IMG/VR virus record: IMGVR_UViG_3300020123_000219
Span: 1-64,000 of that record
Length of the DNA: 64,000 nucleotides
Direction: 5' to 3' (one strand)
Source: a virus
Shown one piece after another: positions 1-38,778 of the stretch. The notes under the pieces are model-generated. The model was not told where the DNA came from, searched no databases, and saw only the letters and a program-made list of their open reading frames with translations. A program made the translations under genes and the position numbers. Numbering within the stretch: position 1 is the first letter of the stretch; each line of letters starts with the position of its first letter.

Positions 1-89
1 GTTCTTCGTCGGGAACGGATTATTGTATTCGATTTTAATGGGACCTGTAATGCGGCCTTCACTGTCAAGCGAAAGCCTCCCGGGTATGT

Positions 90-608
90 TTAGCATGCAA
101 CCGCCTTCTTTCTCCGGCGCCGGGCTGCTTCGTTTCTTGCATGGCAGGCCAGGCACCTGCGCTCGCCGCTCGGCTTGACTGACGTATTCTTCGGGGTATA
201 CGCGTGACCGTGCCTGCACTGAGCCGACAGCGGACGAAACGACGTACCATGCCTGACCCTATCCTGGCCGTTCTCCGCCGGAGTCCCCCACACTAGGTTC
301 GACGCCCTATTATTAAGGTGATCACCGTCAAGGTGACGCCCCTGCATGCCCGGCCCGGGACGGGCTCCGCTGAACGCATCAAGCACGAGTTCATGAACGT
401 AGCGCTTCGATATGCACCCGTCGGCGCAGAGTGATACGCAGAGGTAATGACCCCTTGATCGCGGCCACGGCTTCAGGTCTGCGGCCTTCCGCCGCCACCC
501 GCGCGCATCAAGCCGTGCAAGAACCCGGACATGACCGAGGTCGCTGACCTCATAGATTCCCTCGAACCCCGCCACCGGCAGCCAGGTCTCACCTGCTGTC
601 GTGGCCAT
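90..608 (-). CDS. NUMOD4-HNH homing endonuclease
   Basis: WLPVAGFEGIYEVSDLGHVR (NUMOD4) and HELVLDAF...RHLDGDHLNNRASNL (HNH), C-terminal CRHGH...CLAC zinc module. Confidence 0.9.
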   Translation of the reverse strand: MATTAGETWLPVAGFEGIYEVSDLGHVRVLARLDARGWRRKAADLKPWPRSRGHYLCVSLCADGCISKRYVHELVLDAFSGARPGPGMQGRHLDGDHLNNRASNLVWGTPAENGQDRVRHGTSFRPLSAQCRHGHAYTPKNTSVKPSGERRCLACHARNEAARRRRKKAVAC

Positions 609-646
609 TGGCGCCTCCCTTATCCTGTAGGCTCTAACCTTATACT

Positions 647-780
647 GGCAGGTTTGGTCGTTACTGCCGTCGACGCCCCGCGACTGTCCCGGTCATGCCA
701 AGCCCGCTGCCGACTGGCCCACCCGCCGCTCCGTGCCGCACGCCGACTACCCGCGCCATCGCCCGCATTCCTCCACGTAG
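647..780 (+). repeat. Array 0: leader hairpin plus short CGAC-(NNNNC)n array, putative ncRNA
   Basis: Stem ggcag/ctgcc (647-668) with 12-nt loop gtttggtcgtta; CGAC at 671, 681, 711, 744; units such as tgtcc cggtc atgcc aagcc; TANNNT boxes at 635-646. Confidence 0.7.
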
Positions 781-833
781 TACCCGGATGCGTGGTACTA
801 TCCGCAAGTATCCGACCAGGGAAAGGAACAGGA

Positions 834-1082
834 ATGGACGTAACGCTGATGCGGGCACGCGACACCCTCAGCATTCCCGGCGGCGCCGACCTCATGGCAC
901 CCGAGCCGTGCACCCTCACCCTCACCACAGCTCCCTGCCCGTCCGTGCTCCCGGACCACGCGTGGGCGCGGGGACGGCACGCAGACGGAACCCCCCGCAC
1001 CGTGCTCATCCCCCGCATCATGCCGCCCGCCACGGCCACCAGGCGCGGCGGCACCGACCCGGTCCGCGCCGGGATCATGTGA
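834..1082 (+). CDS. hypothetical protein
   Basis: ATG preceded by GAAAGGA SD; first gene of a + strand cluster. Confidence 0.55.
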   Translation: MDVTLMRARDTLSIPGGADLMAPEPCTLTLTTAPCPSVLPDHAWARGRHADGTPRTVLIPRIMPPATATRRGGTDPVRAGIM

Positions 1083-1084
1083 CC

Positions 1085-1204
1085 ATGACCGAGGAAACCT
1101 GCGTCTGCCAGATCGACGGCGGCCAATGCCAGAACAACGCCGTAACCGGCGACGACTACTGCAGCCTGTGCCTGAACGACAGGCACGCCCACCACAACAA
1201 CTGA
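1085..1204 (+). CDS. small Cys-rich protein
   Basis: MTEETCVCQIDGGQC...CSLC; closely packed with neighbours. Confidence 0.45.
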   Translation: MTEETCVCQIDGGQCQNNAVTGDDYCSLCLNDRHAHHNN

Positions 1205-1234
1205 GAACACGCGCCGGGAAAGGAAAACACGAAA

Positions 1235-1576
1235 ATGGGTCACGGAACGTACACCTTCGGCAAGATGATCGAGATAGCCGCGCTCACCGGCTTCGGCACC
1301 GCCATGCTCGCCGTCATGGTCCTGCTCGCCGGATGGACCCGCGCCGGCCGGCACGCAGCCGAAGCTGCCCTGGCCGCCCGCGAGACCCGGTGCGCTGCCG
1401 CAGGTTGCGCCCACTCCCACGCCGCCAGCAGCCAGGACATCGGAACCCCGGACGACGACGACGCGACCATCAACTGGCTCACCTGCCTCAGCAGCGACAC
1501 CCCCGCCCAATGGCAGGGAATCGACGCGGAACTCAGCCGCGTCCTCGCCTGGGCCGACCGGGTACTCGCCGGATGA
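1235..1576 (+). CDS. hypothetical membrane protein
   Basis: Strong SD, N-terminal hydrophobic helix, ATGA overlap with next gene. Confidence 0.65.
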   Translation: MGHGTYTFGKMIEIAALTGFGTAMLAVMVLLAGWTRAGRHAAEAALAARETRCAAAGCAHSHAASSQDIGTPDDDDATINWLTCLSSDTPAQWQGIDAELSRVLAWADRVLAG

Positions 1577-2223
1577 AACAACCCCACGCCGTCCCGCCCG
1601 GCAAGCCGTGGACCAGCCGGAAAGCCCGCCGCACCTGGGGACCTCTGAAACTGGGGCGGCTGGCCGCCAGGCTGGTCCGCAGGCCGGACCCGGAGCGGTC
1701 CCACCCCGGTTACCGGACGTGGGAAGAAGTCAAGGACAAGCGCGCCATGCACGACCAGTGGGCACGCGACCACAAGGCACGCGGCTGGCTGATCAGCCGG
1801 GCCTACTCCCTCGACCGGTGGGTGTCGTCCGTCCTGCACCTCACCTGGTACCGCAAGACCCGCACCTTCATCACCCGGGGCCGCAAAGGCTGGGCACCCC
1901 GCGACATCTGGTCCCTCGACCACTACCTCACCCGGGTCATCGGCGACGAGTTCGCGTGGGCCGCCGGCCTCATCGGCGACACCGTCCTCGAACTCGACCG
2001 CACCAGCCACTCCTACCCCAGCGACGGCATGACCCCCGGCCAGTGGCGCGACATCCTCCTCAACATCAGCGTCCCCCTCCGCGCCTACAAGCACCTCTGG
2101 GAAGAAAGCACCCGCGAAGACCGCACCTACAAGGAAAACCGGGCAGCAGAGGAAAAGATCATCAACGACGCAGCAGACGCGTTCCGGCTCCTCGCCGACC
2201 ACCTCCCCTCACTCTGGGACTAA
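1573..2223 (+). CDS. hypothetical phage protein
   Basis: ATGA-coupled start, high GC3 frame, ends HLPSLWD. Confidence 0.65.
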   Translation: MKQPHAVPPGKPWTSRKARRTWGPLKLGRLAARLVRRPDPERSHPGYRTWEEVKDKRAMHDQWARDHKARGWLISRAYSLDRWVSSVLHLTWYRKTRTFITRGRKGWAPRDIWSLDHYLTRVIGDEFAWAAGLIGDTVLELDRTSHSYPSDGMTPGQWRDILLNISVPLRAYKHLWEESTREDRTYKENRAAEEKIINDAADAFRLLADHLPSLWD

Positions 2224-2228
2224 CCGCT

Positions 2229-2486
2229 GTGAAACCCGCAGGCCCGATCACCGAACCCCACCCGATCGAAGAATGCTACGGGTCGAAACTCCACTGCTGG
2301 TCGCATGACGTTGACGAACCCGACCAGCCGGCCTACATCTCGTGTTTCGAGTGCAAGCACGTTTACCGGTCGGCTGAGGAACTAGTCGCCGAGCACAACA
2401 AGCACCTAGACCCGGCATGGAATGAACCTGCCGTGACAGACCCGGAACTTGTGCACTGCTGCCCCCTGTGCATCCACGACTGGTAA
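2229..2486 (+). CDS. small zinc-binding hypothetical protein
   Basis: GTG start; CFECKH and CPLCIHDW motifs. Confidence 0.6.
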   Translation: MKPAGPITEPHPIEECYGSKLHCWSHDVDEPDQPAYISCFECKHVYRSAEELVAEHNKHLDPAWNEPAVTDPELVHCCPLCIHDW

Positions 2487-2500
2487 CGAGCAAAGGAAAC

Positions 2501-2863
2501 ATGAAACTGTACCTGGCAGGCCCGATGCGCGGCTACCCCGAATTCAACCACCCGGCCTTCCACGCCGCCGCCGCCGAACTCCGCGCCTCCGGCCACGCAG
2601 TGTTCAACCCCGCCGAGCACGCCGAGTCACTCGGCATCAACACCACAGGAATGACCGGCGACCCCAGCCACGAAGAACTAGCCGGGTACTCGCTGCGGGA
2701 ACTCATCGCCGCCGACCTGGCCTGGATCTGCGCCAACGCCGAAGCGATCGCCCTGCTCCCCGGATGGCAGGACTCACTCGGCGCCGCAGCCGAGGTAGCA
2801 ACAGCCAAAGCACTCGGCATCCCGGTCGGGTACGCCCGGGACTTCCTCGCCAACCCCCGATGA
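2501..2863 (+). CDS. DUF4406 / nucleoside 2-deoxyribosyltransferase-like protein
   Basis: MKLYLAGPMRGYPEFNHPAF...FNPAE...LLPGWQDSLGAAAE matches the family pattern. Confidence 0.85.
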   Translation: MKLYLAGPMRGYPEFNHPAFHAAAAELRASGHAVFNPAEHAESLGINTTGMTGDPSHEELAGYSLRELIAADLAWICANAEAIALLPGWQDSLGAAAEVATAKALGIPVGYARDFLANPR

Positions 2864-3033
2864 CTAACCCTGACTGCGGCTGCGCTCGCGCAGCGGAACG
2901 CTGGAAGTTGAGGCCCAGGTCATCGCACGACCTGGGCCTCAACTGTGTCCCGGGGGTCTCGACCTGACCCGTGAACGGTGGTATGATCGGTACGGTAAGC
3001 GGCAGTGAAACAGAAACTATAAGGCTACAGGCA

Positions 3034-3360
3034 TTGGCTCGCACGCACATCGTGACCGACGACCTTGACGGAACCCCGGCCCAGGAGACCATCCAGTTCT
3101 CCATCAGCGGGAAGTATTACGAGATCGATTTGTCCCACGCGAACGCTGACACGTTCCGGGAAGTGTTCCAGCCGTGGATCGACGCGGCCAGGTCCCGGAA
3201 CCCGGCCCGGCAGCTTCCCCGGTCGCGGGATTCCCGCGCGGAGTCCGCTGCGATCCGTGACTGGGCCAGGCACACGGGCGTGGACGTGAAGGACCGGGGG
3301 AGGCTCCCGTCGGGCGTGAAACGCCAGTACTATAACCGGATCACTTCCGCCGCCGCTTAA
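3034..3360 (+). CDS. lsr2: Lsr2-family nucleoid-associated protein
   Basis: TDDLDG...YEIDLS dimerisation domain and IRDWAR...RGRLP AT-hook-like motif; TTG start inferred. Confidence 0.92.
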   Translation: MARTHIVTDDLDGTPAQETIQFSISGKYYEIDLSHANADTFREVFQPWIDAARSRNPARQLPRSRDSRAESAAIRDWARHTGVDVKDRGRLPSGVKRQYYNRITSAAA

Positions 3361-3371
3361 AAAAGAAACCT

Positions 3372-3690
3372 CCTGCCGGTACGGTCATCACGGCAGGCAG
3401 CAAACGACTCTCCATTCCAGTACAGGCCGCTGCGTGGCGACTTGTCCGACCAGGGCACGGCGCTTCGACTAATCGTCGCTATCCCGGTCGGCCCCGACTC
3501 TGCCATTCACGACCAACCCGATCCGACGGGTCCGTGCGCGCCGCCTCCCTCGCCGACATGTCAGGCCCACGCGCTTCATGACCGCCGACCTGTCAGACCC
3601 GCGCGTACCACAGCATGTGACTACCCTGCCCACGCCATTCCGTCGACGACTACGCGACTCCCTGCCCGCCCCACCCGCACCCGACTTCCC
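3372..3690 (+). repeat. Array 1: leader hairpin plus 9 units of YGAC-(NNNNC)4-5, putative ncRNA
   Basis: Stem cctgccg/cggcagg with loop gtacggtcatca; YGAC at 3405, 3438, 3466, 3495, 3524, 3554, 3586, 3618, 3647, 3682; nearly every pentamer ends in C. Confidence 0.9.
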
Positions 3691-4125
3691 TCACTCGTCA
3701 GAAGGACCGAAATCCTCAGGGAAAAGCACATCGGCTGTAGGCCATTCCCCGTGCGCGAAGAACTCGACTTCTGCCACGTCGTCCCTGCCCCGGAACACGA
3801 ACTTGCGGACGCGGGGGCACGCCCGCAGGTGCAGGCCGCCGCACCACATGCATCCCTCGCCGTTCGCGAACCGTTCCCGCACGGACGCCCGCTGTTCCTC
3901 GTCGAGGTCTTCAGGGTCCGCGCGTTCCGGCCCGGTCATCGGGTCCGCGAGCGCCTGCTCGCGGATGTCGGCGAACCCACGGAGGCGATCCTCGTGGCTG
4001 CGTATCATCGCCGCTGACAGGGCGATGGCGGGAGCGAGCTTGCTGACCTGGTCGTCGTCGAGGACGCGGCCGAGGGTTTTCCTGAGCACTGCTTCCAGCG
4101 CGGGCCATTCAGGTGAACCAGCCAT
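3691..4125 (-). CDS. hypothetical protein with CxxC...C motif
   Basis: SD AGGAAAGG; CMWCGGLHLRAC; fills the gap between arrays 1 and 2. Confidence 0.7.
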   Translation of the reverse strand: MAGSPEWPALEAVLRKTLGRVLDDDQVSKLAPAIALSAAMIRSHEDRLRGFADIREQALADPMTGPERADPEDLDEEQRASVRERFANGEGCMWCGGLHLRACPRVRKFVFRGRDDVAEVEFFAHGEWPTADVLFPEDFGPSDE

Positions 4126-4140
4126 GAGCGCCTTTCCTGA

Positions 4141-4146
4141 TACAAT
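4141..4146 (+). promoter_or_regulatory. putative -10 box for array 2
   Basis: TACAAT in an AT-rich patch 12 nt upstream of the leader hairpin. Confidence 0.45.
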
Positions 4147-4158
4147 TTAACTGACACG

Positions 4159-4830
4159 CCTGCCGGTACGGTCATCACGGCAGGAGACAAACGACCCTCC
4201 CTTGCCACGCGTGCTCCGACTCCGCCAGCCAGCTCCGGACAATAGCCGACTTCCCGCGCCTTTGCGGCTCGCCGCGACCACCCATGCCCGCGCCATTCCT
4301 TGCGCCGCCAACCGAGCCGACATGCCTGCCCGGCGCGTGACCCACTTCCGACATGACCCTCCCGTTCCCGCCACCCCCGACTCTCCGCTGCGACGCATAG
4401 CCCCGTGACTAACCGGTGCGGTACCGCCCATTGCCGACATGCCGCCGCCCGCGCCCGTCCCGTATCCGACCGGCCAGGCCATCACATGCCAGACCACCCG
4501 ACTTGCCGTTCCATTGCAGTCCCGGCCCGACCTCCCAGGCCGACTCGTCGCAAGCCCGACTCTCCATTCCTGCCCGATGCCGCGCCCCGACGTGCCGCGC
4601 CGCTCCTGCGCATGCGACTGCTCCGGGCATCACACTGCGAACCGACCAACCGCTCCTACGCGAAACGCTCCCGACTCCCCAGCTCAGGCCCACTCCCTTC
4701 CCGACTCCCCAGCTCAGCCCAGGCCCGACTTGCCTATCCGATCCCGCGCCGACCTGACTTGCCGGCCCGATCCCGCGCCGACATGCCGTTGCTGCGCCCT
4801 CCACCGCGACTCTCCATCGCCCTGCTGACC
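4159..4830 (+). repeat. Array 2: leader hairpin plus ~22 units of YGAC-(NNNNC)n, putative ncRNA
   Basis: 26-nt leader identical to array 1; YGAC mostly every 24-32 nt from 4192 to 4826; e.g. CGAC ttgcc gttcc attgc agtcc cggcc CGAC ctccc aggcc gactc gtcgc aagcc. Confidence 0.92.
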
Positions 4831-4831
4831 G

Positions 4832-6502
4832 CTACCGGAACAACGCCGACGCCGCGCCCTGAAACGGTGACGACACCTCCGCGTGCGCGAGCATGTCCCC
4901 CGCCGGGTACGGCTCCGGTTCCCCCTCATCCAGAACCGGGGCCTGCCGGCACTTCGGGCACGCCGGATGCCCCGCCCCGTAGTACTTGTGGCCGCAGAAC
5001 CCGCACTCCGCCACCCCGTACACGTCAGCCCACGACCCCGCCTGCCGCCAGAACGCCTGCACCACGGCGTCCCCCCGGTCCGTTGACCGGCCGATCCTGG
5101 CCCGGATCTCGTCCTTCGTCTCCATCCGCAGCACCCCGCCGGACAGCGGTTCCTTGCTGTGCGGCGCCGACAGGTCCGACAGCAGGTCCTCGTCATCAGG
5201 CAGGCACACCGTGGACCCAGCCGACGGGTCCAGCATCTCCCGCAGCCCGTACCAGGCCCCTACCCTGCAATTCAAGAAGGAAAGCTCGCCGGTCTTGTCC
5301 CTCTTCCGGGTCCGCGCGGACGCCGTGAACGGCTCGGCCCGCGCCCCCATCTCCCGCAGCCGGTCCAGCACCCCCGCCCCGATCCCGATCACGTCCACCA
5401 TCGCGGTCGCCTCCGGGTCCGCGTCGAGGATGCCCTTCACCCGCCCGGTCACCGCCATCGTGTCTTCCTTCGCGTACGTCCGCAGCTCGGTGATCACGTC
5501 GCCCTTGCGGATCGCTATCGCGGTCTTGTCCTCCCCCATACGCGCCGGGTCCACCCCGACCACGTGCGGCTCCCCCGCGTGCAGCAGCCCCGCGCCCTCC
5601 CGCTCGTACCAGCGTTCCACCGCCGCCTCGGCCCACGCCAGCGGAATGATCGCATCCTCATCTCCCGCGTAGAACTCGCCCAGCACGCGGTTCTGGTACA
5701 GCGACGAGATCTCGCCCCACTGCTTCTTCCGCTGGTCAGCCCACTGCTCGCTGATCCTCAGCGACGAGATCGCCTCAGCGAGGGTGACGTGCCGGGGCCG
5801 CCAGTCCTCGTAGCCGGGGCGGCGGGAGCAGATGTCGTAGAACCGTCCCTGCGGCTCCCCTGGCGTGGACAGCGCCAGGGCGTAGGCTTCCCCGGTCCCG
5901 GAGAACGCGCCCTCGCACGCGTCGAACGTGTTCGCGGGGATCGACTTCGACTCGTCGTAGATGAACAGGAGGCTGTCGGCGTGGCAGCCCTCGATCAGGG
6001 CCGGGTTGGAGCACGCGGCAGCGAACGCCTGCCCGTGCTGCAGGTTGACGTGCAGGGACAGCATCTCGCGGGGCTGCAGCGGGTAGTCCCGGATCTTCTC
6101 CCAGTTCAGCCGCTGCGACCATTTCCGGATCTCCGGCCACAGGTAGTGGATGAGCTGCCGCCACGCCCCTGCCGTGGTCACGATCTTCCAGTCCGTTCCG
6201 GTCGCGTCCCTGGTGAGCGCGAACCACCACACGGTCAGCGCCGCGATGCAGGACTTCCCGAGCCCGTGGGGGCCTCGCACCGCTTCCCGCTTGTGGAGGG
6301 ACAGCCCCCCGATGATGTCTTCCTGGTAGGGGGTCAGGCCGGGGCCGTCGCGGAAGTCGACGCAGTCATGGATGAACGCGACCGGGTCGTCGTAGTAGAC
6401 GGCGACGCCTTTCTTGACCTGCGCTGCGCGCTGCTTCAGTGACCGCAGGTAACGGAGGCGTTCGAGCCTGATCTCGTCGAGTGACCGTGGAGCCTGGTCC
6501 AA
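4832..6502 (-). CDS. terL: terminase large subunit
   Basis: Walker A RGPHGLGKS, Walker B LFIYDES, motif III LSTP, nuclease GVDPARMGED and STDRGDA. Confidence 0.93.
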   Translation of the reverse strand: MDQAPRSLDEIRLERLRYLRSLKQRAAQVKKGVAVYYDDPVAFIHDCVDFRDGPGLTPYQEDIIGGLSLHKREAVRGPHGLGKSCIAALTVWWFALTRDATGTDWKIVTTAGAWRQLIHYLWPEIRKWSQRLNWEKIRDYPLQPREMLSLHVNLQHGQAFAAACSNPALIEGCHADSLLFIYDESKSIPANTFDACEGAFSGTGEAYALALSTPGEPQGRFYDICSRRPGYEDWRPRHVTLAEAISSLRISEQWADQRKKQWGEISSLYQNRVLGEFYAGDEDAIIPLAWAEAAVERWYEREGAGLLHAGEPHVVGVDPARMGEDKTAIAIRKGDVITELRTYAKEDTMAVTGRVKGILDADPEATAMVDVIGIGAGVLDRLREMGARAEPFTASARTRKRDKTGELSFLNCRVGAWYGLREMLDPSAGSTVCLPDDEDLLSDLSAPHSKEPLSGGVLRMETKDEIRARIGRSTDRGDAVVQAFWRQAGSWADVYGVAECGFCGHKYYGAGHPACPKCRQAPVLDEGEPEPYPAGDMLAHAEVSSPFQGAASALFR

Positions 6503-6519
6503 TTACCTCCCTTACAGGG

Positions 6520-6822
6520 GTAACTGTACCGTCTCGCGGTGTCGGTGAGGAGTGCAGAGCAGGGACTTGGCCAGTCGGGCGCGGGACGCGCTGACGTGGA
6601 AAGTCGGGCGCGAGGGGAACTGGCCAGGCAAAGTCGGGGCGGAGCGGACAGCAACGGCTGGCGGAGTCGGGCCGGCGCTGGGCGGGATAGGCACGTCGGA
6701 ACGGGGCGGAGTGGACTGGCGGGACAAGTCGGTGTGGCAATGACCGGCCAGGACTAGTCGATTCGCCCGGAGCTGCGGTGAGTGGGATTGTCGTGACGGG
6801 ATGTAGCGACCGAACCATCCCG
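6520..6822 (-). repeat. Array 3: leader hairpin plus 8 units of CGAC-(NNNNC)5 on the minus strand, putative ncRNA
   Basis: Stem cgggatg/catcccg (6797-6822), minus-strand loop gttcggtcgcta; GTCG on + at 6541, 6574, 6603, 6633, 6666, 6695, 6728, 6757, 6790. Confidence 0.9.
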
Positions 6823-6836
6823 GTGAATACTTCCGG

Positions 6837-7388
6837 TCAGGAGGAGCTGACGACCCTGAGGTGCCGACCGTCACTGGCGGGACGTTTCGGCTTGGCCGCG
6901 CGCAGCTTCCCGGCCGTGGCCGTTGCCTTCTGCGGGGGCCACGGCTTGCCTGCTGCCTCGGCTTCCCTGCGGCGCCGCTCGGTGTTGTCCCGGGTGTTCT
7001 TCTTCTCGCAGTCAGTGCACTGGGTCCGCAGCTTTTCCGGGTGCTTCTTGTTCGCGTAGAACGTCAGCTCCGGGTTGTCGCGGACGTTGCGCTTGCAGGA
7101 GCTGCACGTCCGGGGCGGCGGCTCGGGGTCCTCGCCCCGCAGGGCGCGGGCCTCGTTCCTCATCTCCGCAGCGCTGCGCCTGGCCGCGCGGACCAGCACC
7201 TCGTGCTTGCGGACCGTGAGTTCGTCGCGGCGGCGGTCCCGCCGCGACCAGTCAGTTTCCAGCGTGATCAGCGCGTCGACCTTGGCCATGATCTCGTCGG
7301 CGTAGCCAGCGAGACCGAGCGCGAGCGTGCCTTTCAGGTCAGCCCGCGCTTCCAGTAGCTCTTTCGCGTAATCCCTTTCCGTTCCCAT
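6837..7388 (-). CDS. hypothetical zinc-binding protein
   Basis: CSSC...CTDC, basic C-terminus; TAGAAT upstream on the minus strand. Confidence 0.7.
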   Translation of the reverse strand: MGTERDYAKELLEARADLKGTLALGLAGYADEIMAKVDALITLETDWSRRDRRRDELTVRKHEVLVRAARRSAAEMRNEARALRGEDPEPPPRTCSSCKRNVRDNPELTFYANKKHPEKLRTQCTDCEKKNTRDNTERRRREAEAAGKPWPPQKATATAGKLRAAKPKRPASDGRHLRVVSSS

Positions 7389-7420
7389 GTTCCCCTATTC
7401 TACACGAGCGGGGGGAGGCG

Positions 7421-7690
7421 TCACTCAGGAAGCCAGGCACGGCTCCGCTCGCTGTCCGGCGTCCGGACCTTGCCCGGGTTCGCGTCCTGCCAGGACCGGA
7501 ACCGGTCGACTGAATCCTGCACCAGGGCGATGTGCCTGCGCGGCGAGCCGCCCTTGATGCACAGGAACACGTAGTAGGCGAGCGTCTTTACTGACTGGCA
7601 GTCCCTGGCCCGGAGCACGATCACCGGCTCGTCGTCGGGGATGTCCCCGTGCTCGGTCGTTACCTTCCCGTATTTCCCGTCATATCCCAT
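7421..7690 (-). CDS. hypothetical phage protein
   Basis: Compact ORF with DEPVIVLRARD motif seen in small phage proteins. Confidence 0.65.
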   Translation of the reverse strand: MGYDGKYGKVTTEHGDIPDDEPVIVLRARDCQSVKTLAYYVFLCIKGGSPRRHIALVQDSVDRFRSWQDANPGKVRTPDSERSRAWLPE

Positions 7691-7791
7691 GCCGGCAGCT
7701 TACCACCAGGGCAGCCGGGGCCCGGGGGAAGGGTAAGATCACGGGGTGCCTCCTGCGCGGGGCGGGAACGGAAGAGAGGGAGGCGGAAGCG

Positions 7792-8364
7792 ATGCGCAAG
7801 CACATGGTTCTGGACGGGCTGAGGCCCGTCGATTTCACCGGGGTGCTGCTCGCGGAGAAGTCCACCAGGTCCGCCGGGCGGCTCAGGTGGACCGAGCTGG
7901 CTCTGTACCGGATGGCCGGCGAAGACCAGCACCCCCCGGAAGGCGCCGGGGATGAGTACCCTTCTGGCGCCTACGTCCTGACTTCCCTCGGCGCGTCCCT
8001 GGTGTATCACCGGGGCGAGGGCGGGTGCGACCGGAGCAGGCGGTGCGATCCTGGCCGGGCGGGGGACCTGCCTCCGGGGTTCGCGCCGTGCGAGGAATGC
8101 TGGCCGGTGGCGGAGCGGTGGCCGGGTGACGGCGATGACCCGACTGAGCTGGCGCCCGGTGACATGTGCCGGCCTGAGCGGAACCGGCCTAAGGCCGTGG
8201 TGTGCGCGGGGGCCGGGGACGTGGAGGGGACGCTTCGGGACTGGTCGGGGAGCAGGAAGGTGCGGGCGTCGCGGCTGTCCGGCCCGGCGCAGGACCTGCT
8301 GGAGGAGGCGTCGAAGGTCGACGAGGACATCAGGCGCATGATAACCGAGGAAGTCCACCTGTGA
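7792..8364 (+). CDS. hypothetical protein
   Basis: GGAGG SD; LRWTELALYR...YVL. Confidence 0.7.
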   Translation: MRKHMVLDGLRPVDFTGVLLAEKSTRSAGRLRWTELALYRMAGEDQHPPEGAGDEYPSGAYVLTSLGASLVYHRGEGGCDRSRRCDPGRAGDLPPGFAPCEECWPVAERWPGDGDDPTELAPGDMCRPERNRPKAVVCAGAGDVEGTLRDWSGSRKVRASRLSGPAQDLLEEASKVDEDIRRMITEEVHL

Positions 8365-8374
8365 CCGTTATGGC

Positions 8375-8403
8375 TTGACAGGGGCAGCTAGCGCCTATAG
8401 CAT
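8375..8403 (+). promoter_or_regulatory. sigma70/HrdB-type promoter of the early operon
   Basis: TTGACA-N17-TAGCAT. Confidence 0.7.
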
Positions 8404-8438
8404 CCCCTTATAGCTTCACCACCGGGAAAGGAAACACC

Positions 8439-9698
8439 ATGGCGAAACTAGGCGACATCGCGACCATGCAGGTCGCGGGCCGGCCAGTCGTCGGCGACGA
8501 CGACACCCTGCACGACGCCTGGCTCATCTGGGTACGCATCCGCAACAGCGTCACCGACAGGAACCGCAAGGCAGGAGACGGCCAGCCGCTCCCCTGCAAG
8601 CCGATGACCCTCGACGGCGTGCCCGGCTGGGTGTGGCAGGGACACATCTCCGACGCACGCCGGTTCGTGTTCCCGCCAGGCCAGCCACGGGAACACCCGT
8701 ACACCCCCGCCACCTCAGACCCCGACGACATCCAGCGTGCCAAGAACAACTTCAGCACCGTGCACTCGCGGCTCACCAAGTCCACCGCGAACCTGGTGAA
8801 CGTCGAAACTCACCGTCCCGACCCGTCTATCTGGTGGGTCCGCGACGAGTTCTCCGGCGTGTCACTGCCGGAGGGCAGGTACCGGGTGCTGCTCGCGATG
8901 GCCAGGGGCGAGGAAATCCCCGACCAGCCCGAGCCCGCCGCCCCCGCGCAGCCGGCGCCCGAGGTCCCGGCCGCCGGGGCATCGCCTCCGGAGAGCGCAG
9001 CGACGGTCTACATCTGCCGGTACCGCGACGCCGCCGGGTGCGCCTACACCACGACGGTCCAGGGATCGCTGTACTCGCACGCCGAGGCCGGCACCGTCCA
9101 CACCCGCCACGAGATCCCCCTGCAGATCTGCCCGGTCTGCGGTGACGGGTTCGACTCGCCGCTCGGCAGGGCCTTGCACCTGTCGAAGGCCCACAACGTG
9201 GCGAAGGATTCCGTCCAGCGGAACCTCCTCGACCTGGAGCAGACCACGAAGCTGTGGGCGAAACGCGAGGACAAGGCCGCGAGGACAGCCGCAGCAGGCG
9301 GGATGAGCCCAGGCACGACCCGTGACATGGCGGACCCTGACATCGAGGCGGCCATCGACGCCTTCACCCCCCGGAAGCCAGAGCCCGCCGTCCAGGCTCC
9401 TGCCACTCCTGGTCCCGCGCCTCTCAGCGACTTTGCGGGACCAGGCCAGATGGCCCTGATCGGCCAGTCTCCCCCGGAGTTCGCGCTGCTCCCGCCCGAG
9501 CCGCAGCAGCCTGCAGGGATCGGCAACCCGGCCGTCGAGGCGGTCAGGCAGCTCGTCAGCGACTATGACAAGGCCGTCGCCGAACGCAACGCCGCCGTCA
9601 CCGAACTCCAGGCACTCCGCAAGCAGCAGGCGCAGCTGGCCAACATCAAGGCCGCGCTGCAGCTCGCGCAAGAAGCCCTCGACGACGAGGGAGCGTAG
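8439..9698 (+). CDS. C2H2-like zinc-finger / coiled-coil protein
   Basis: CPVCGDGFDSPLGRALHLSKAH, a second degenerate finger upstream, C-terminal heptads. Confidence 0.75.
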   Translation: MAKLGDIATMQVAGRPVVGDDDTLHDAWLIWVRIRNSVTDRNRKAGDGQPLPCKPMTLDGVPGWVWQGHISDARRFVFPPGQPREHPYTPATSDPDDIQRAKNNFSTVHSRLTKSTANLVNVETHRPDPSIWWVRDEFSGVSLPEGRYRVLLAMARGEEIPDQPEPAAPAQPAPEVPAAGASPPESAATVYICRYRDAAGCAYTTTVQGSLYSHAEAGTVHTRHEIPLQICPVCGDGFDSPLGRALHLSKAHNVAKDSVQRNLLDLEQTTKLWAKREDKAARTAAAGGMSPGTTRDMADPDIEAAIDAFTPRKPEPAVQAPATPGPAPLSDFAGPGQMALIGQSPPEFALLPPEPQQPAGIGNPAVEAVRQLVSDYDKAVAERNAAVTELQALRKQQAQLANIKAALQLAQEALDDEGA

Positions 9699-11675: not shown

Positions 11676-12085
11676 CGTTGCCCAGGGCAACGCCCGCGTC
11701 CAGCCGTAGGATGCTGATCGCTAACCGGTCATCACGAGCGAAGAAACGCGTCACCGCGCCGGAGAACAGGACCGTGGAAACCATGCGGCGTCCCCTGTCC
11801 GGCGGCGGATGCTGGTGCCAGCTCCCCGCCGCCCACGACTGGCCCGGCCGCGACGAAGGCGCACCTCACCCCCGCCGCGCCATGTGGGCGGGGCTAGCCC
11901 GCCAGCCGTACGATCAGGGGCCGTGCCTCAGCGAGCACTGCGACCGGCAGTCCGAACCCGGGGTGTGGTTCTGCTGCGGGCTGTGCGCCGAGGCGGCGGA
12001 CTTCCGCCGCGAGACAGTCGTGCACGCCGACCCCTGCAACGAAAGATCCGGCGTCCGCGTCGGCCTGAAAGGAAAACGAAAGTGA
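11672..12085 (+). CDS. Cys-rich hypothetical protein
   Basis: GTGA overlaps at both ends. Confidence 0.5.
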   Translation: MTLPRATPASSRRMLIANRSSRAKKRVTAPENRTVETMRRPLSGGGCWCQLPAAHDWPGRDEGAPHPRRAMWAGLARQPYDQGPCLSEHCDRQSEPGVWFCCGLCAEAADFRRETVVHADPCNERSGVRVGLKGKRK

Positions 12086-12840
12086 AATTCCGTCTCGCTG
12101 CCGCCGTGATCACGGCGGCAGCTGCCCTCTCGGCAGCGGTGCCCGCCGCAGCGGCAGGGCACGGCAAGGGTCACTGGACGACCTGTAAGCCGTTCTTCCG
12201 CCGCACGATCTCCGGTCCCTGGGGGGCCTACATCATCCGCGATGACGTGTTCACGCTCCCCGGGCTGGCCACGACCATATGCATCCGCCACCAGCGGGGC
12301 ACCCCCGCGTTCGCTGTCAGCTCCTCCGACGCTGCCTCCCCCGGGCCTGCGCTGGCCTACCCCGAAGTGTTCTACGGCTGCGTCTACGGTGCCTGCTCAC
12401 CCGGAACGATCCTCCCCTCCCCCCTGCACGGAGGGGAACACGGCGTCAGCGCGAAGGTGCGGAAAATGAGCGTCTCGGTATTCGACAAGGCCCGGCGCAA
12501 GGGAAAATTCGACACAGGCTTCGACATCTGGCTCACCCCGGACCGGCAGACCGGAGGTCAGGCAACCGGCGCCGAGGTCATGATCTGGCTGCGCGAGCAG
12601 GGAGTCCGCTTCACCCCCCGGTGGCGGGTCCGGGCCGGGGGGATCTGGTGGCTGGCAGAGGAATGGCGGACCTGCCACTCCAACGGCCTGTGCTGGCCGC
12701 TGATCATATTCCTGCGCGAGCACCAGCACTCCTACGCCAGGAAACTACCCCTCATGCCGTTCTTCGCGTTCGGCGAGCACCACGGCTGGATCAGGAAAAC
12801 GTTCTGGCTGGAATCAGTCGAGCACGGATTCGAGATCTGA
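12082..12840 (+). CDS. secreted GH12 endoglucanase-like protein (possible premature TGA)
   Basis: Signal peptide; YPEVFYGC...CSPGT, FDIWL, AEVMIW (nucleophile), SVEHGFEI (acid/base). Confidence 0.82.
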   Translation: MKFRLAAAVITAAAALSAAVPAAAAGHGKGHWTTCKPFFRRTISGPWGAYIIRDDVFTLPGLATTICIRHQRGTPAFAVSSSDAASPGPALAYPEVFYGCVYGACSPGTILPSPLHGGEHGVSAKVRKMSVSVFDKARRKGKFDTGFDIWLTPDRQTGGQATGAEVMIWLREQGVRFTPRWRVRAGGIWWLAEEWRTCHSNGLCWPLIIFLREHQHSYARKLPLMPFFAFGEHHGWIRKTFWLESVEHGFEI

Positions 12841-12887
12841 TCCGGCGGCACAGGACTAGCGTGCACGTTCTTCCGGGTGTTCCCGTA

Positions 12888-16590: not shown

Positions 16591-17871
16591 ATGATCGACT
16601 CGAATCTACTGCTTGATCAGCCGGGAACGGTCGTCGCGGCGCTAGCGCGCAGAGGCGTTGCGTCGGATCTCGTCCTTTCCGCCAGGGATGCCCTGATCCT
16701 TCGCCGGACTATCTTGACTGAGGTCGAAGGGCTCCGCGCCGAGATGAACTCGCGCTCGAAGCAGGTCGGGAAACTGATCGCGGCCAACGATCCGAACGCC
16801 GCTGGCGAGCGCGAGGCGCTGGCGGACCTCAAGTCTCGTCTCGCCGAGAAAGAGGTCGCGTTTCGGGAGGCTGAGAGCAACTCACGATCGCTCCTGCTAG
16901 TCTTGCCGAACTTGCCCTCACCGAACGCACCAGATGGTCTCGACGAGTCGTGCAATGTTGTTCTCCGGGTCGAAGGACCTCCGGCTGACAAATACAACCC
17001 AGCGGACTACCGCCCGCACTGGGAGGTCGCGGGCGACCTTGGAATCTTCGATCCCGAGCGCGCCGCAAAGCTGAGCGGTTCTGGTTTCTCGTTGCTCTCT
17101 GGTGACGGGGCAAGGCTGATCCGTGCTCTCGTGCAGTTTGGCCTCGACCTCAACCGTGATAAATACCGTGAGGTCCTTGTCCCGCACATGGTGCGCAGCG
17201 AAGTCTTCGAAGGCACTGGTCACCTGCCTAAATTCGCCGATGACGCTTACAACACCACCCTGGACAATCTGTGGTTGATCCCGACCGGTGAGGTTCCACT
17301 GACCGGCATGCACCGAGGTGAGCTATTCGAACAAGATGAACTGCCGAAGCGTTATATGGCGTACTCGGTCTGCTTCAGGCGAGAAGCCGGATCGGCCGGG
17401 AAGGATACGCGAGGCCTTCAGCGGCTTCACGAGTTCCATAAGGTCGAGCTTGTTCGTATCTGTACGGCAGAGACGGTTCAAGACGAATTTGAGGGCCTGC
17501 TGGCGGATGCCGAGCGGCCTCTTCAGCTTCTGGAACTGCCTTACCGGGTTGTCGACCTGGCTGCGGGCGATCTTACGTTCTCGTCCTCACGCATCTTCGA
17601 CCTAGAGGTTCACTCGCCCGGCGTCGATCGCTGGCTCGAAGTCTCTTCAGTCGGAAACTTTACCGACTTCCAGCCCAGGCGAAGCAATATCCGATACCGC
17701 GCCGGAGCTGGTCAGACTAGGCCGCCCTACTACCTCAACGGATCGGCCATGGCTACTCCGCGGATGTGGGCCGCAATTATCGAGCACGGCCAAAGGGAGG
17801 ATGGCACGGTTGCGCTTCCTGAGCCGCTGGTGTCCTACATGGGCAAGAAAGTGCTGGAACCGGAGAAATAG
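16591..17871 (+). CDS. serS: seryl-tRNA synthetase
   Basis: N-terminal coiled-coil arm, GHLPKF, LIPTGEVPL, motif 2 FRREAGSAGKDTRGLQRLHEFHKVE, EVSS..NFTDFQ, motif 3 LNGSAMATPR. Confidence 0.97.
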   Translation: MIDSNLLLDQPGTVVAALARRGVASDLVLSARDALILRRTILTEVEGLRAEMNSRSKQVGKLIAANDPNAAGEREALADLKSRLAEKEVAFREAESNSRSLLLVLPNLPSPNAPDGLDESCNVVLRVEGPPADKYNPADYRPHWEVAGDLGIFDPERAAKLSGSGFSLLSGDGARLIRALVQFGLDLNRDKYREVLVPHMVRSEVFEGTGHLPKFADDAYNTTLDNLWLIPTGEVPLTGMHRGELFEQDELPKRYMAYSVCFRREAGSAGKDTRGLQRLHEFHKVELVRICTAETVQDEFEGLLADAERPLQLLELPYRVVDLAAGDLTFSSSRIFDLEVHSPGVDRWLEVSSVGNFTDFQPRRSNIRYRAGAGQTRPPYYLNGSAMATPRMWAAIIEHGQREDGTVALPEPLVSYMGKKVLEPEK

Positions 17872-19373: not shown

Positions 19374-19928
19374 ATGGCAAGACGCGACTACGTGGCCGAC
19401 ATGACGGCCTACATCAAGGAACGCATCCCTGAAGGGGACTACGTCACGGCCAAGGTGGCGAAGCTGATCTTCGAGCAGGTCAAATCCGACGACCCTGACC
19501 TGCTCAGCGGCTGGCTCATGGCCTGCGGGCCGTCGCTGATCAGCAGGCAGATCGGCCACGCCCGCCTCGCGAGCCACGCGACCGCGCGCCGGTCCCTGAA
19601 GAGGGAACGGTTCGCGGCGGCGGCAGCGGCCTTCAGCCAGGGAAACCCCGAGCCGCTGAAAGATTACCTGGACGAGCTGCAGTACCGCACCGCCGGTAAC
19701 GTGATCAAGAAACTGGGGAACCTGACCAGCGCGGACTGCCGGTTCATCGCGTCGACCTGCCACGAGGCGTCCGCTACCTACAACTTCGAGGCCGTCTTCA
19801 TGGACGCGCTCGCACGCAAGGTACCGGAAGGGGTCGTGCGGGACCACCTCACCGACGAGCAGGTCGCCGAGCTGAGGTCCAACGTGGCTGACGCGATCCA
19901 GCGCAGGTCGGCTGTCATCAGCGCCTGA
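19374..19928 (+). CDS. hypothetical helical protein, upstream neighbour of the RAMP-like gene
   Basis: SD, good coding bias, no family recognised. Confidence 0.75.
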   Translation: MARRDYVADMTAYIKERIPEGDYVTAKVAKLIFEQVKSDDPDLLSGWLMACGPSLISRQIGHARLASHATARRSLKRERFAAAAAAFSQGNPEPLKDYLDELQYRTAGNVIKKLGNLTSADCRFIASTCHEASATYNFEAVFMDALARKVPEGVVRDHLTDEQVAELRSNVADAIQRRSAVISA

Positions 19929-19960: not shown

Positions 19961-20833
19961 GTGGCTGTTGCCATTCCCCCGGCCGGGAACGTGTTCAAGG
20001 AATATGACGAGCGCGCATGGCCGTACAAGTTCACCGTCGGATTCCGCATCGGCGCCATCGCCGGCGGCATCCCCTCCGACCCGATGATCGCCGAGTCATG
20101 GATCAAGACGAAGATCGCGGGGAAAAGCGAGGAAGATTACCGGGCCATGGTCGCGCAGACCATGCTGGACCGCAACGTGACCCTCGACGAGGCCGTAGCC
20201 CAGGCCAACATCATGAAGAACCTGAACGGGTTCAAGCGGGACACCGAGCTGGGCATGTACATCGAGGGCCGGCAGGTCAAGGCAGCGATGAAGGAAGCAG
20301 TGTCCGTTGCCTGCGCGTCCCCGGAGAACAAGCTGGACATCAGGTCATGGGGCAACACCCGCAAGTACCTGACCAACTACCTCCCCGAGCACGTGTTCGT
20401 CGACGACCTGCGGGTCTACCTGTTCCACGCCTCCGACCACCCCCGCGAGGGCTGCGCCTCGGACTGCGAGGACTGCAAGGAAGGACGCGTGTACAAGGCA
20501 GGCGACCCGTTCCACGAGAAGACCCGGGTGATGCAGACCTTCCCGGTGAACGAGAAGACCCGCCAGTCAGGCATCCAGTACACCGAAGTGTGCGAGGACG
20601 TGTACATCGAGTTCACGGTCCGCACCGACCACCCGTTCACCTACGAAGAGTGGGCGATGATCTGGCTGACCGGCCAGTACCAGGGCGTCGGCGCGCTGCG
20701 GGCGATGGGCATGGGCGTCTACGAGCCCGTCAAGTTCACGCAGATCCGGGGACCGGCCATCAAGAAGGCCGGCAAGTCCGGCGGCCCCAAGAAAAAGGAA
20801 GCCGCAGGCGCAGGCGAGGATGAAGAAGACTGA
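19961..20833 (+). CDS. RAMP / Cas7 (Csm3)-like RNA-binding protein
   Basis: N-terminal strand + AIAGG; MYIEGRQVKAAMKEA resembles xIPGSSxKGxxR; C-terminal G-rich loop GVGALRAMGMG; HxxxxCxxxCxxC insertion. Confidence 0.7.
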   Translation: MAVAIPPAGNVFKEYDERAWPYKFTVGFRIGAIAGGIPSDPMIAESWIKTKIAGKSEEDYRAMVAQTMLDRNVTLDEAVAQANIMKNLNGFKRDTELGMYIEGRQVKAAMKEAVSVACASPENKLDIRSWGNTRKYLTNYLPEHVFVDDLRVYLFHASDHPREGCASDCEDCKEGRVYKAGDPFHEKTRVMQTFPVNEKTRQSGIQYTEVCEDVYIEFTVRTDHPFTYEEWAMIWLTGQYQGVGALRAMGMGVYEPVKFTQIRGPAIKKAGKSGGPKKKEAAGAGEDEED

Positions 20834-38712: not shown

Positions 38713-38778
38713 CAGCCTCCCGCGTCACAACGCAAAAAAGCGGGACGCGAACCACGTCCCGCCATCCCGTCCCGGCCA

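What the first reader, a model, noticed from the sequence alone, without database searches (positions are those of the whole stretch)
4159..4830. Largest array: strict 5-nt cytosine periodicity nested in a ~29-nt CGAC period
Splitting on CGAC gives units such as 'ttgcc gttcc attgc agtcc cggcc', 'ctccc aggcc gactc gtcgc aagcc' and 'caacc gctcc tacgc gaaac gctcc'. The phase resets at each CGAC. Period 5 does not fit codon structure, and units are not copies of each other, so CRISPR and tandem-repeat finders would likely miss it. A TACAAT box just upstream suggests its own transcript, convergent with terL.
Basis: seen in the sequence. Interest (0 to 1): 0.9.

Follow-up and report, generated by a model that had tools for sequence, protein, structure and literature searches.

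The report
Phage VIPR guide-RNA arrays, C-type
The five-base cytosine rhythm is real and marks guide-RNA arrays of a phage VIPR system, a CRISPR-like RNA-guided DNA-silencing weapon first described in 2026 preprints, so it is a known kind of system in an unusual cytosine-based form.

Summary
Window 4159-4830 is the largest of four non-coding arrays (645-770 +, 3372-3690 +, 4159-4830 +, 6530-6822 -). Their units are CGAC plus about five NNNYC pentamers. In 4192-4830, C fills 88 of 96 in-phase positions, against 37% elsewhere (z = 9.2 against shuffles).

A DNA-pattern scan found the same arrays in dozens of other viral contigs, with up to about 100 units per array. They always travel with a two-gene module. 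In many relatives the order is P1, array, P0. In this window P1 (19374-19928) and P0 (19961-20833) lie 13-16 kb from the arrays.

This clade differs from the studied type II. The constant bases are YC, not GGY. The C-rich strand seems to be the RNA. Units are short and CGAC-delimited, with a 5' hairpin leader.

Transcription, P0 binding and targets are not shown. Verdict: new member of a known kind. This scan has already met VIPR in at least 10 other genomes.

The parts
645..670 (+). Leader hairpin of array 0: 5-6 bp stem, 12-nt loop GTTTGGTCGTTA
   Evidence: Loop consensus GTWYGGTCRYYA is shared by all four arrays. Stems differ but still pair.
671..770 (+). Array 0: about 4 CGAC-headed units of NNNNC pentamers
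   Evidence: 12/15 in-phase C, z 2.5
3372..3397 (+). Leader hairpin of array 1: CCTGCCG / loop GTACGGTCATCA / CGGCAGG. Identical to that of array 2.
3405..3690 (+). Array 1: about 9-12 units. It lies downstream of the lsr2-like gene and is co-directional with it.
   Evidence: 31/39, z 5.0
4141..4146 (+). TACAAT, a candidate -10 box 13 nt upstream of the array 2 leader hairpin
   Evidence: Not called by the consensus scan. Family-wide enrichment of -10-like boxes on this side of arrays.
4159..4184 (+). Leader hairpin of array 2
4192..4830 (+). Array 2 (the finding): 23 CGAC-headed units of about five NNNYC pentamers. It fills the gap between ORF 3691-4125 and the terL stop codon.
   Evidence: 88/96, z 9.2; non-coding by GC1/2/3
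6530..6796 (-). Array 3: 9 units, alternating 33 and 29 nt, C-rich on the minus strand. It lies between ORF 6837-7388 and terL and is co-directional with both.
   Evidence: 40/42, z 7.0
6797..6822 (-). Leader hairpin of array 3: GGGATG / loop GTTCGGTCGCTA / CATCCC
19374..19928 (+). P1: conserved helical partner protein of 184 aa, a candidate Vipr-accessory (vap-like) gene
   Evidence: Homologous to the gene preceding arrays in other phages. No Pfam, PHROG, PADLOC or NCBIfam family. AF2 model is helical with no PDB match.
19961..20833 (+). P0: Vipr-like RAMP protein (Cas7/Csm3 fold) of 290 aa. Predicted reader of the arrays.

Best explanation
The region is one of four guide-RNA (vrRNA-like) arrays of a phage VIPR system (Viral Interference Programmable Repeat).

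**Published mechanism (type II; Escherichia phage SUSP1 and a Pseudomonas fulva prophage).**
- One small RAMP protein (Vipr) binds each 5-nt repeat of the RNA.
- It locks the constant bases away and presents the variable bases.
- The filament then base-pairs discontinuously with double-stranded DNA, 5 RNA nt per 3 DNA nt, as an R-loop triplex.
- This silences genes of competing phages or satellites.

**Inferred here.**
- P0 (19961-20833) is the Vipr-like RAMP, and P1 (19374-19928) is its accessory protein.
- The four arrays near terL are probably transcribed from their own promoters as C-rich RNAs.
- Each RNA starts with a hairpin leader followed by CGAC-headed units of about five NNNYC pentamers.
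- P0 would bind the constant Y-C of each pentamer, leaving three variable bases to specify the target.
- CGAC resets the register and marks unit borders, either as a processing site or as a filament start.
- A unit corresponds to about one filament turn (5-6 protomers per turn in the SUSP1 structures).

**Shown here:** the periodicity, its conservation across many phages, its tight co-occurrence with P0, the RAMP fold of P0, and the non-coding nature of the arrays.

**Not shown:** transcription, which strand is the RNA, P0 binding, the pairing rule, and the targets.
For: 1. **Periodicity.** It is strong and specific and confined to four intergenic tracts of the 88-kb record.
2. **Spread.** A two-unit DNA pattern found 69 viral loci, most with multi-unit arrays of up to about 100 units or 4 kb. 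The pooled logo is NNNYC.
3. **Partner gene found without prior assumption.** Clustering the neighbouring ORFs gave one protein family in 24 loci. It is homologous to window P0 (E 7e-29).
4. **Second partner.** A second family is homologous to P1 (E 1e-12).
5. **Recurrent architecture.** The order P1, array, P0 on one strand recurs in at least 12 loci. The array runs from the P1 stop codon to the P0 ribosome-binding site.
6. **Co-occurrence.** Of 10 array-bearing records with no P0 in the fetched flank, 8 have P0 elsewhere, including 6 of 6 records at least 90% complete. All 15 bacterial-genome loci found through P0 carry an array beside it.
7. **Fold.** P0 has a Cas7/Csm3 RAMP fold. Helix-1 and the G-rich loop align to the SUSP1-type Vipr family (hhalign E 6.5e-4).
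8. **Literature.** VIPR is defined as phage-encoded Vipr RAMP plus vap gene plus vrRNAs of pentanucleotide repeats in the flanking intergenic DNA. It has seven types. Alternative repeats are NNNGG, YNNNG and NNNNG, and there are 'staggered' contiguous arrays (10.64898/2026.04.26.720920). One protomer binds each repeat (10.64898/2026.04.26.720927). Orphan vrRNAs lie far from vipr (10.64898/2026.10.15.759431). Non-canonical repeat motifs such as GAC/NN and CAC/NN are reported (10.64898/2026.10.21.760802).
9. **Natural variants.** Soil-metagenome variants change variable positions (4236, 4515, 4631), or delete exactly two pentamers (10 nt at 6651), or delete one base that restores a 29-nt unit (4687).
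Against: - Sequence similarity of P0 to the characterised type II Vipr family is weak (hhalign probability 28%). P0 matches no Cas or other family model.
- The SUSP1 residues that hold the two guanines (H17, D177, W178) are not conserved in P0.
- The repeat scaffold differs from the published one: YC on the strand co-directional with P0, against GGY co-directional with vipr in SUSP1.
- Units are about 5 repeats with no structured 3' tail, against 9-16 repeats plus a pseudoknotted tail.
- In this window the arrays lie 13-16 kb from P0 and flank terL.
- No natural target and no pairing rule were found.
- No RNA evidence exists.
Confidence: 0.85

Rival explanations
1. Same VIPR system, but the functional RNA is the G-rich complement, (GRNNN)n ending in GTCG. 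This would match the published NNNGG/NNNNG 'staggered array' types. The hairpin would then be a 3' tail, as in SUSP1 vrRNAs.
For: - All published vrRNA consensus motifs are G-based, and the structured tail is 3' of the repeats.
- In the G orientation the hairpin follows the repeats. Its loop (YGAC) can pair with the adjacent GTCG, like the SUSP1 tail pseudoknot.
- In the G orientation arrays 1 and 2 would be co-directional with terL and ORF 3691-4125, and array 1 would end in a hairpin plus a T-run.
- In record G001 the arrays beside P0 have the G-rich strand co-directional with P0.
- A long untranslated C-rich RNA should be a strong Rho substrate. A G-rich RNA would not be.
Against: - -10-like boxes lie upstream in the C orientation for 15 of 74 arrays, against 1 of 74 in the G orientation, at equal AT content.
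- Arrays squeezed between the P1 stop codon and the P0 ribosome-binding site leave no room for an antisense promoter.
- In 15 of 15 genome loci, and in Microcystis phage Mae-JY09, the C-rich strand is the P0 sense strand. In Mae-JY09 the order is P0, array, terminator hairpin.
- In G001 an intrinsic terminator separates P0 from the downstream array. The upstream array has a TTGCGG-16-TATCAT promoter reading in the C orientation.
- The guanine-binding residues of SUSP1 Vipr are absent from P0.
Confidence: 0.2
2. The arrays are idealised Rho-utilisation (rut) sites: C-rich, G-poor, unstructured RNA with regularly spaced YC dinucleotides. They would load the host Rho factor to terminate, insulate or titrate transcription around terL, independently of P0.
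For: - Composition is C 0.46-0.47 and G 0.18-0.23.
- The periodic motif is exactly the YC dinucleotide bound by each Rho primary binding site.
- The structure-derived E. coli consensus AAACCCAAUC reads as two NNNYC pentamers, and 58-61 nt bind one hexamer, about two 29-nt units.
- Arrays often sit at convergent gene junctions.
Against: - Rho reads 10 nt per protomer and needs no strict register.
- Arrays of 1-4 kb far exceed what termination needs.
- Near-perfect co-occurrence with a RAMP gene is unexplained by Rho.
- The CGAC punctuation and the leader hairpins are also unexplained.
- A published system already accounts for a 5-nt register by one protomer per repeat.

Rho may still act on these RNAs as a side effect.
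Confidence: 0.05
3. A DNA-level element: iteron-like protein-binding arrays for packaging (terS/terL) or replication. The 5-bp sub-period would reflect half a helical turn.
For: In this window the arrays bracket terL in inverted orientation.
Against: - In most other phages the arrays bracket P1/P0, not terL.
- The signal is strongly strand-asymmetric, which points to a single-stranded reader.
- The units are not copies of each other.
- Array sizes vary from 100 nt to 4 kb.
Confidence: 0.03
4. The window's arrays are 'solo' or decoy vrRNAs aimed at other phages' Vipr proteins, rather than guides for the phage's own P0.
For: They lie 13-16 kb from P0. Published work describes orphan vrRNAs that redirect or target competitors' VIPR systems.
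Against: The phage encodes its own intact P0 and P1 (GC3 0.89). Relatives with the same array type have arrays both adjacent to P0 and remote from it in one genome.
Confidence: 0.1

Closest known systems
VIPR systems (Vipr RAMP + vap + vrRNA). The type II references are Escherichia phage SUSP1 and a Pseudomonas fulva prophage (bioRxiv 10.64898/2026.04.26.720920, 10.64898/2026.04.26.720927, 10.64898/2026.10.15.759431).
   Same: - Phage- or prophage-encoded.
- A small stand-alone RAMP with helix-1 and a G-rich loop, plus one adjacent accessory gene.
- Long intergenic tracts of 5-nt repeats with constant and hypervariable positions.
- Several arrays per genome, some far from the protein gene.
- No cas genes or CRISPR repeats were seen in the stretches examined; the whole record was not screened for them.
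   Different: - Constant bases are Y-C (about 1.7 fixed bases per repeat), not G-G-Y.
- The C-rich strand is co-directional with the RAMP gene, whereas in SUSP1 the G-rich strand is.
- Units are about 5 repeats headed by CGAC with a -1/-2 register shift, not 9-16 repeats with a pseudoknotted 3' tail.
- There is one 5' hairpin leader per array.
- P0 is larger (about 225-290 aa against 195) and lacks the guanine-binding residues.
- P1 has no detectable similarity to anything known.
Non-canonical and 'staggered' VIPR arrays: NNNGG, YNNNG and NNNNG repeats with contiguous 1-nt-overlapping vrRNAs (10.64898/2026.04.26.720920, methods and fig. S18 legend), and GAC/NN, CAC/NN, WGT/NN, TGH/NN motifs (10.64898/2026.10.21.760802).
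   Same: Degenerate pentamer scaffolds beside Vipr-like folds, and contiguous units without long tails. Read on the complementary strand, the present repeat is GRNNN, close to NNNGG/NNNNG. The -1 shift at GTCG could be the published '1-nt overlap'.
   Different: The figures are not available to me, so identity with a published type cannot be checked. The evidence here points to the opposite strand as the RNA. A YC-only scaffold with CGAC punctuation is not named in either text.
Type III / type VII CRISPR-Cas backbone (Csm3, Cmr4, Cas7) on crRNA
   Different: The register is 5 nt, not 6 nt. No repeat-spacer array, Cas10, Cas5, Cas6 or Cas11 turned up, though the record was not screened for them. 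P0 matches no Cas HMM.
Rho utilisation (rut) sites
   Same: C>G skew and regularly spaced YC dinucleotides in untranslated RNA.
   Different: rut sites have no strict register, no CGAC punctuation, no kilobase length and no linked RAMP gene.

Membership tests
VIPR system | Sequence homology to published Vipr proteins (the SUSP1 / X1U2U4 family) | tested here: inconclusive
   Profile-profile hhalign of A1 against A4 gives E 6.5e-4, probability 28%, over 134 columns from helix-1 to the G-loop. The single SUSP1 sequence gives E 0.05. tblastn of P0 does not reach SUSP1.
VIPR system | Tandem pentanucleotide repeats with constant and hypervariable positions, in intergenic DNA associated with the RAMP gene | tested here: met
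   Period 5 with C at 0.91 and Y at 0.80. Arrays are adjacent to P0 in relatives and co-occur in 6 of 6 near-complete records. In the window itself they are 13-16 kb away.
VIPR system | Canonical GGY/NN (YNNGG) repeat scaffold | tested here: not met
   The scaffold is NNNYC (complement GRNNN), while SUSP1 shows YNNGG on the vipr strand. The papers accept 'related consensus' motifs (NNNGG, YNNNG, NNNNG, GAC/NN, CAC/NN), so this separates the locus from type II, not from the family.
VIPR system | vrRNA of 9-16 repeats capped by a conserved structured 3' tail (type II architecture) | tested here: not met
   Units have about 5 (1-8) repeats headed by CGAC. There is one hairpin per array, at the C-strand 5' end. 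Arrays between P1 and P0 have no hairpin at either end. Published array architectures vary (staggered, ribozyme-interspersed), so this feature does not define the family.
VIPR system | An adjacent accessory (vap) gene | tested here: met
   P1 is a conserved neighbour of P0 in the window and in at least 12 loci. Its fold is unassigned.
VIPR system | Encoded mainly by phages and prophages | tested here: met
   The window is an IMG/VR virus record with terL, recT and other phage genes. Relatives are viral contigs and loci in Actinomycetota and Chloroflexota genomes.
VIPR system | vrRNAs are expressed and co-purify with Vipr, and the RNP binds dsDNA by gapped pairing (1-nt skip rule) and silences transcription | not testable with these tools
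   No RNA run holds the sequence. Computational target searches under several skip rules gave nothing.
CRISPR-Cas (class 1) | A repeat-spacer array and a multi-subunit cas operon; 6-nt register of Cas7 on crRNA | tested here: not met
   The units are not copies and TRF finds no repeat array. The register is 5 nt. P0 matches no Cas HMM and no other cas gene lies beside it.
Rho utilisation site | C-rich, G-poor unstructured RNA with YC dinucleotides, about 60-80 nt, that causes Rho-dependent termination | tested here: inconclusive
   Composition and the YC motif fit. Termination cannot be tested. The strict 5-nt register, the length and the RAMP linkage are not features of rut sites.

The most novel reading that the evidence does not exclude
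This large actinobacterial-phage clade (814 protein clusters at 50% identity) may use a 'mirror' VIPR code. The guide would be the C-rich strand. Its Vipr-like protein would hold a Y-C dinucleotide instead of G-G-Y, using a different pocket, since the guanine-binding residues are replaced. Three bases per repeat would remain free. Guides would be CGAC-headed units of about one filament turn, fired from promoter-hairpin leaders. That would imply a pairing rule different from the published '2 paired, 1 skipped' rule, and a second solution for register setting.
Probability: 0.45. Interest if true: 0.6.

Novelty: new member of a known kind. Interest (0 to 1): 0.35.

Why it matters
VIPR is a months-old discovery, and only type II (GGY/NN) has been studied at the bench.

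- **A large new clade.** This locus and its relatives are soil and rhizosphere phages and prophages of Streptomyces, Nocardiopsis, Actinomadura, Streptosporangium, Chloroflexota and others. They have a minimal YC scaffold, short CGAC-headed units and arrays up to 4 kb, which reaches 3-6% of some genomes.
- **If the C-rich strand is the guide.** The family would then tolerate a complete change of the protein-held bases. That matters for how the code evolved and for engineering orthogonal VIPR tools.
- **A possible bench handle.** One isolated phage, Microcystis phage Mae-JY09, carries the same clade and might serve as one.
- **For genome annotation.** Strand-asymmetric period-5 tracts in phage intergenic DNA should be read as vrRNA arrays.

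Tried and rejected
- **Rfam** (E-value mode, 1-9000): nothing relevant.
- **Phage database by DNA:** only weak terL hits to Streptomyces phage TurkishDelight and Actinoplanes phage phiAsp2.
- **terL-based locus search:** only one identical fragment.
- **First literature search on '5-nt periodicity':** uninformative.
- **The window's GGTC-loop leader:** it does not occur upstream of arrays in other contigs, although other hairpins and -10 boxes do.
- **Consensus sigma-70 scan:** it calls no promoter at the arrays.
- **Target search in local databases.** I took the variable positions of about 1,000 units under rules p1p2p3, p1p2, p2p3, p3p4 and p1-p4 with 0-3 skipped bases. I searched a 0.66-Mb and then a 1.5-Mb local database of related phages, with order-reversed, shuffled and rotated controls. 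The only excess was array-to-array matches at period 5.
- **Target search in IMG/VR:** two scans with a 12-pentamer unit, under p1p2-x and p2p3-x. Both gave 0 hits.
- **Codon-likeness of the variable triplets:** there is within-pentamer correlation, but no frame or strand stands out. TAA and TAG are mildly depleted and TGA is not.
- **RNA evidence:** no RNA holder is listed for the stretch.
- **P1 fold search against PDB:** no match at E <= 0.001.
- **Family libraries:** Pfam, PHROGs, PADLOC and NCBIfam gave nothing for P0, P1 or ORF 3691-4125.
- **Coding explanation:** rejected, because GC1/2/3 is flat.
- **CRISPR explanation:** rejected, because there are no repeats.
- **Hairpin as a terminator for the minus strand:** only array 1 has a T-run, so this is rejected as a general reading.

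Full report
**1. The observation**

Window 4159-4830 lies between the start of a minus-strand ORF (3691-4125) and the stop codon of terL (4832-6502, minus).
- Splitting on CGAC gives 23 units. Their bodies read as pentamers ending in C.
- C fills 88 of 96 in-phase positions (0.92), against 0.37 elsewhere.
- Shuffling each unit body 20,000 times never exceeded 64 (mean 45.9, sd 4.6, z 9.2).
- The same construction occurs at 671-770 (+), 3405-3690 (+) and 6530-6796 (minus strand). It occurs nowhere else in the 88-kb virus record that holds the window.
- On the 5' side of the C-rich strand, each array is headed by a hairpin with a 12-nt loop, GTWYGGTCRYYA. The stems differ but still pair (3 of 7 pairs show compensatory changes among three distinct sequences).
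- ORFs inside the arrays have flat GC1/2/3, unlike real genes here.
- Tandem Repeats Finder sees only one local duplication, and Rfam sees nothing.

**2. The arrays are widespread**

A pattern of two consecutive 29-nt units found 69 stretches in IMG/VR. Most of them hold multi-unit arrays, some with 50-100 units over 1.8-4 kb.
- Pooled over 63 distinct arrays and 926 units, the pentamer is N-N-N-Y-C (Y 0.80, C 0.91). Composition is C 0.46, G 0.18.
- CGAC-to-CGAC distances peak at 5k+3 and 5k+4.
- So '29 nt' is only the commonest case: five pentamers, then a -1 or -2 register reset at CGAC.

**3. The partner genes**

I clustered all plausible ORFs in the flanks. One family turned up in 24 loci and a second in 10.
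- Both have homologues in the window. P0 (19961-20833) matches at E 7e-29 and P1 (19374-19928) at E 1e-12. They sit directly after recT.
- In at least 12 viral loci the order is P1, array, P0 on one strand. The array starts at the P1 stop codon (for example TGAC..., TAACGAC...) and ends at the P0 ribosome-binding site.
- Of ten array-bearing records with no P0 in the fetched flank, eight encode P0 elsewhere. The two exceptions are 27-28% complete fragments. All six records at least 90% complete have it.
- Conversely, all 15 bacterial-genome loci found through P0 have an array beside it. The hosts include Nocardiopsis, Streptosporangium, Streptomyces, Streptacidiphilus, Actinomadura and Chloroflexota.
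- The P0 family has 814 clusters at 50% identity and carries no annotation.

**4. What P0 is**

An AlphaFold2 model built from 42 homologues (pLDDT 80.6, pTM 0.79) matches only Cas7-family RAMPs.
- Foldseek E is 2e-6 to Cmr4, Csm3 and type VII Cas7.
- Helix-1 (G-R-Q-x-K-A-A-x-K-E) and the G-rich loop (G-x-G-A-x-R-x-x-G-x-G) are (near-)invariant.
The fold search supports that.
- P1 is helical, with no structural match.

**5. Comparison with what is known**

A literature search led to VIPR systems.
- **Discovery preprint** (10.64898/2026.04.26.720920). It describes mostly phage-encoded loci with a small ancestral RAMP (Vipr), one accessory gene (vap) and vrRNAs made of tandem pentanucleotides (YNNGG) in the flanking intergenic DNA.
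  - The variable NN bases pair with dsDNA while skipping every third target base.
  - There are seven types.
  - Alternative repeats are NNNGG, YNNNG and NNNNG.
  - Array architectures are 'staggered', ribozyme-interspersed or single.
- **Structural preprint** (10.64898/2026.04.26.720927). One protomer binds each repeat. There are six protomers per turn in the binary filament and five in the DNA-bound form. The guanines are held by H17/D177 and R138/W178.
- **Third preprint** (10.64898/2026.10.15.759431). It describes orphan vrRNAs far from vipr.
- **Fourth preprint** (10.64898/2026.10.21.760802). It reports non-canonical motifs (GAC/NN, CAC/NN ...) beside Vipr-like folds.

The present locus meets the family-defining features: a stand-alone RAMP, an accessory gene, period-5 arrays with constant and variable positions, and a phage host.

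I fetched SUSP1 (KT454805) to compare. Its YNNGG tracts flank vipr and vap on the same strand as those genes. Sequence similarity of P0 to the SUSP1-type family is only marginal (hhalign E 6.5e-4, probability 28%), and the guanine-binding residues are replaced.

Earlier follow-ups in this scan classified at least 10 other loci as VIPR, including a 'CGC-type' and staggered arrays. I did not re-test those.

**6. Which strand is the RNA?**

This is the main open point.

*For the C-rich strand:*
- It is the sense strand of P0 in 15 of 15 genome loci, in all P1-array-P0 loci, and in Microcystis phage Mae-JY09. There the order is P0, array, terminator hairpin.
- -10-like boxes (>= 5/6 of TATAAT) lie within 110 nt upstream in that orientation for 15 of 74 distinct arrays, against 1 of 74 in the other orientation, at equal AT content.
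- Record G001 is the one case where the arrays beside P0 are inverted. There the upstream array has its own TTGCGG-16-TATCAT promoter plus hairpin plus ACAAAC-CGAC leader reading in the C orientation. An intrinsic terminator separates P0 from the downstream array.

*For the G-rich strand:*
- All published consensus motifs are G-based, with 3' tails.
- The hairpin loop could pair with GTCG, like the SUSP1 pseudoknot.
- A long untranslated C-rich RNA looks like an ideal Rho substrate. The E. coli Rho consensus AAACCCAAUC equals two NNNYC pentamers.

I put the odds at about 80:20 for the C-rich strand.

**7. Mechanism proposed**

*Inferred by homology.* P0 polymerises on array RNA, one protomer per pentamer. 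It holds Y-C and exposes three variable bases. CGAC sets the register and bounds units of about one filament turn. The RNP binds DNA of competing mobile elements and silences it, and P1 assists.

*Supporting microevolution.* Soil-metagenome variants differ at variable positions (4236 p1, 4515 p3, 4631 p3). They delete exactly 10 nt (two pentamers) at 6651, and one base at 4687 that turns a 30-nt unit into a clean 29-nt one. The numbers are small.

**8. What failed**

I found no targets and could not derive the pairing rule. No RNA data exist.

**9. Verdict**

It is best explained as vrRNA arrays of a VIPR system (confidence 0.85). That makes it a new member of a known kind, in a little-described YC/CGAC form whose guide strand and code remain to be shown. 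Rho loading, DNA iterons and decoy arrays are minor rivals.

Noticed in passing
L128 (Microcystis phage Mae-JY09, PP395641.1) record 37713-38860: This is the only isolated phage in the phage collection with a P0 homologue (25.6% identity, E 6e-16). The gene is followed directly by a CGAC/NNNYC array of about 400 nt and a hairpin terminator. The stretch has 73% GC, which is odd for a Microcystis phage.
   Followed up: partly
L025:6966-7561 and L010:977-2545: The DNA pattern scan also pulled in two other period-5 array types: (NNGAC)n in L025 and (ACNNC)n in L010. They match the 'GAC/NN' and 'CAC/NN' non-canonical VIPR motifs reported in 10.64898/2026.10.21.760802. No P0-family gene was found in the 10.8-kb L025 record.
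   Followed up: partly
window 19961-20833, residues about 156-177 of P0: A His/Cys-rich insertion (H..C...C..C), probably zinc-binding, is present only in the window's P0 and its closest relative (about 3 of 42 aligned homologues).
   Followed up: partly
window 6651 and 4687: Soil-metagenome variants of this phage carry a 10-nt deletion (exactly two pentamers) in array 3. They also carry a 1-nt deletion in array 2 that converts a 30-nt unit into a 29-nt one.
   Followed up: partly
G004 (record of L022) and G001 (record of L004): Some relatives devote 5.2-5.9 kb to such arrays, scattered over 7-8 sites. That is about 3.8% of the 153-kb G004 record and at least 5.7% of G001. G005 has a single 4-kb array of about 100 units.
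   Followed up: partly
window 4192-4830 and all arrays: Untranslated RNA that is 46% C and 18% G, with YC every 5 nt, should be an excellent Rho substrate. How kilobase-long arrays escape premature Rho termination is unexplained. P0 coating or phage inhibition of Rho are possibilities.
   Followed up: no
window 3691-4125 (-) and 6837-7388 (-): The two small ORFs embedded among the arrays have no family assignment. ORF 6837-7388 has weak PHROG hits to HNH endonuclease and endonuclease VII (E about 6e-4). ORF 3691-4125 has a CxxC...C motif.
   Followed up: partly
window 2971-3360 (+): This is an Lsr2-like nucleoid-associated protein (Pfam Lsr2 dimerisation and DNA-binding domains, E 4e-20 and 1e-9). 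It is encoded directly upstream of array 1 and is co-directional with it.
   Followed up: partly
window 16591-17871 and 12082-12888: First-reader notes mention a seryl-tRNA synthetase between yqaJ and recT, and a GH12 glucanase with an in-frame TGA. I did not examine either.
   Followed up: no
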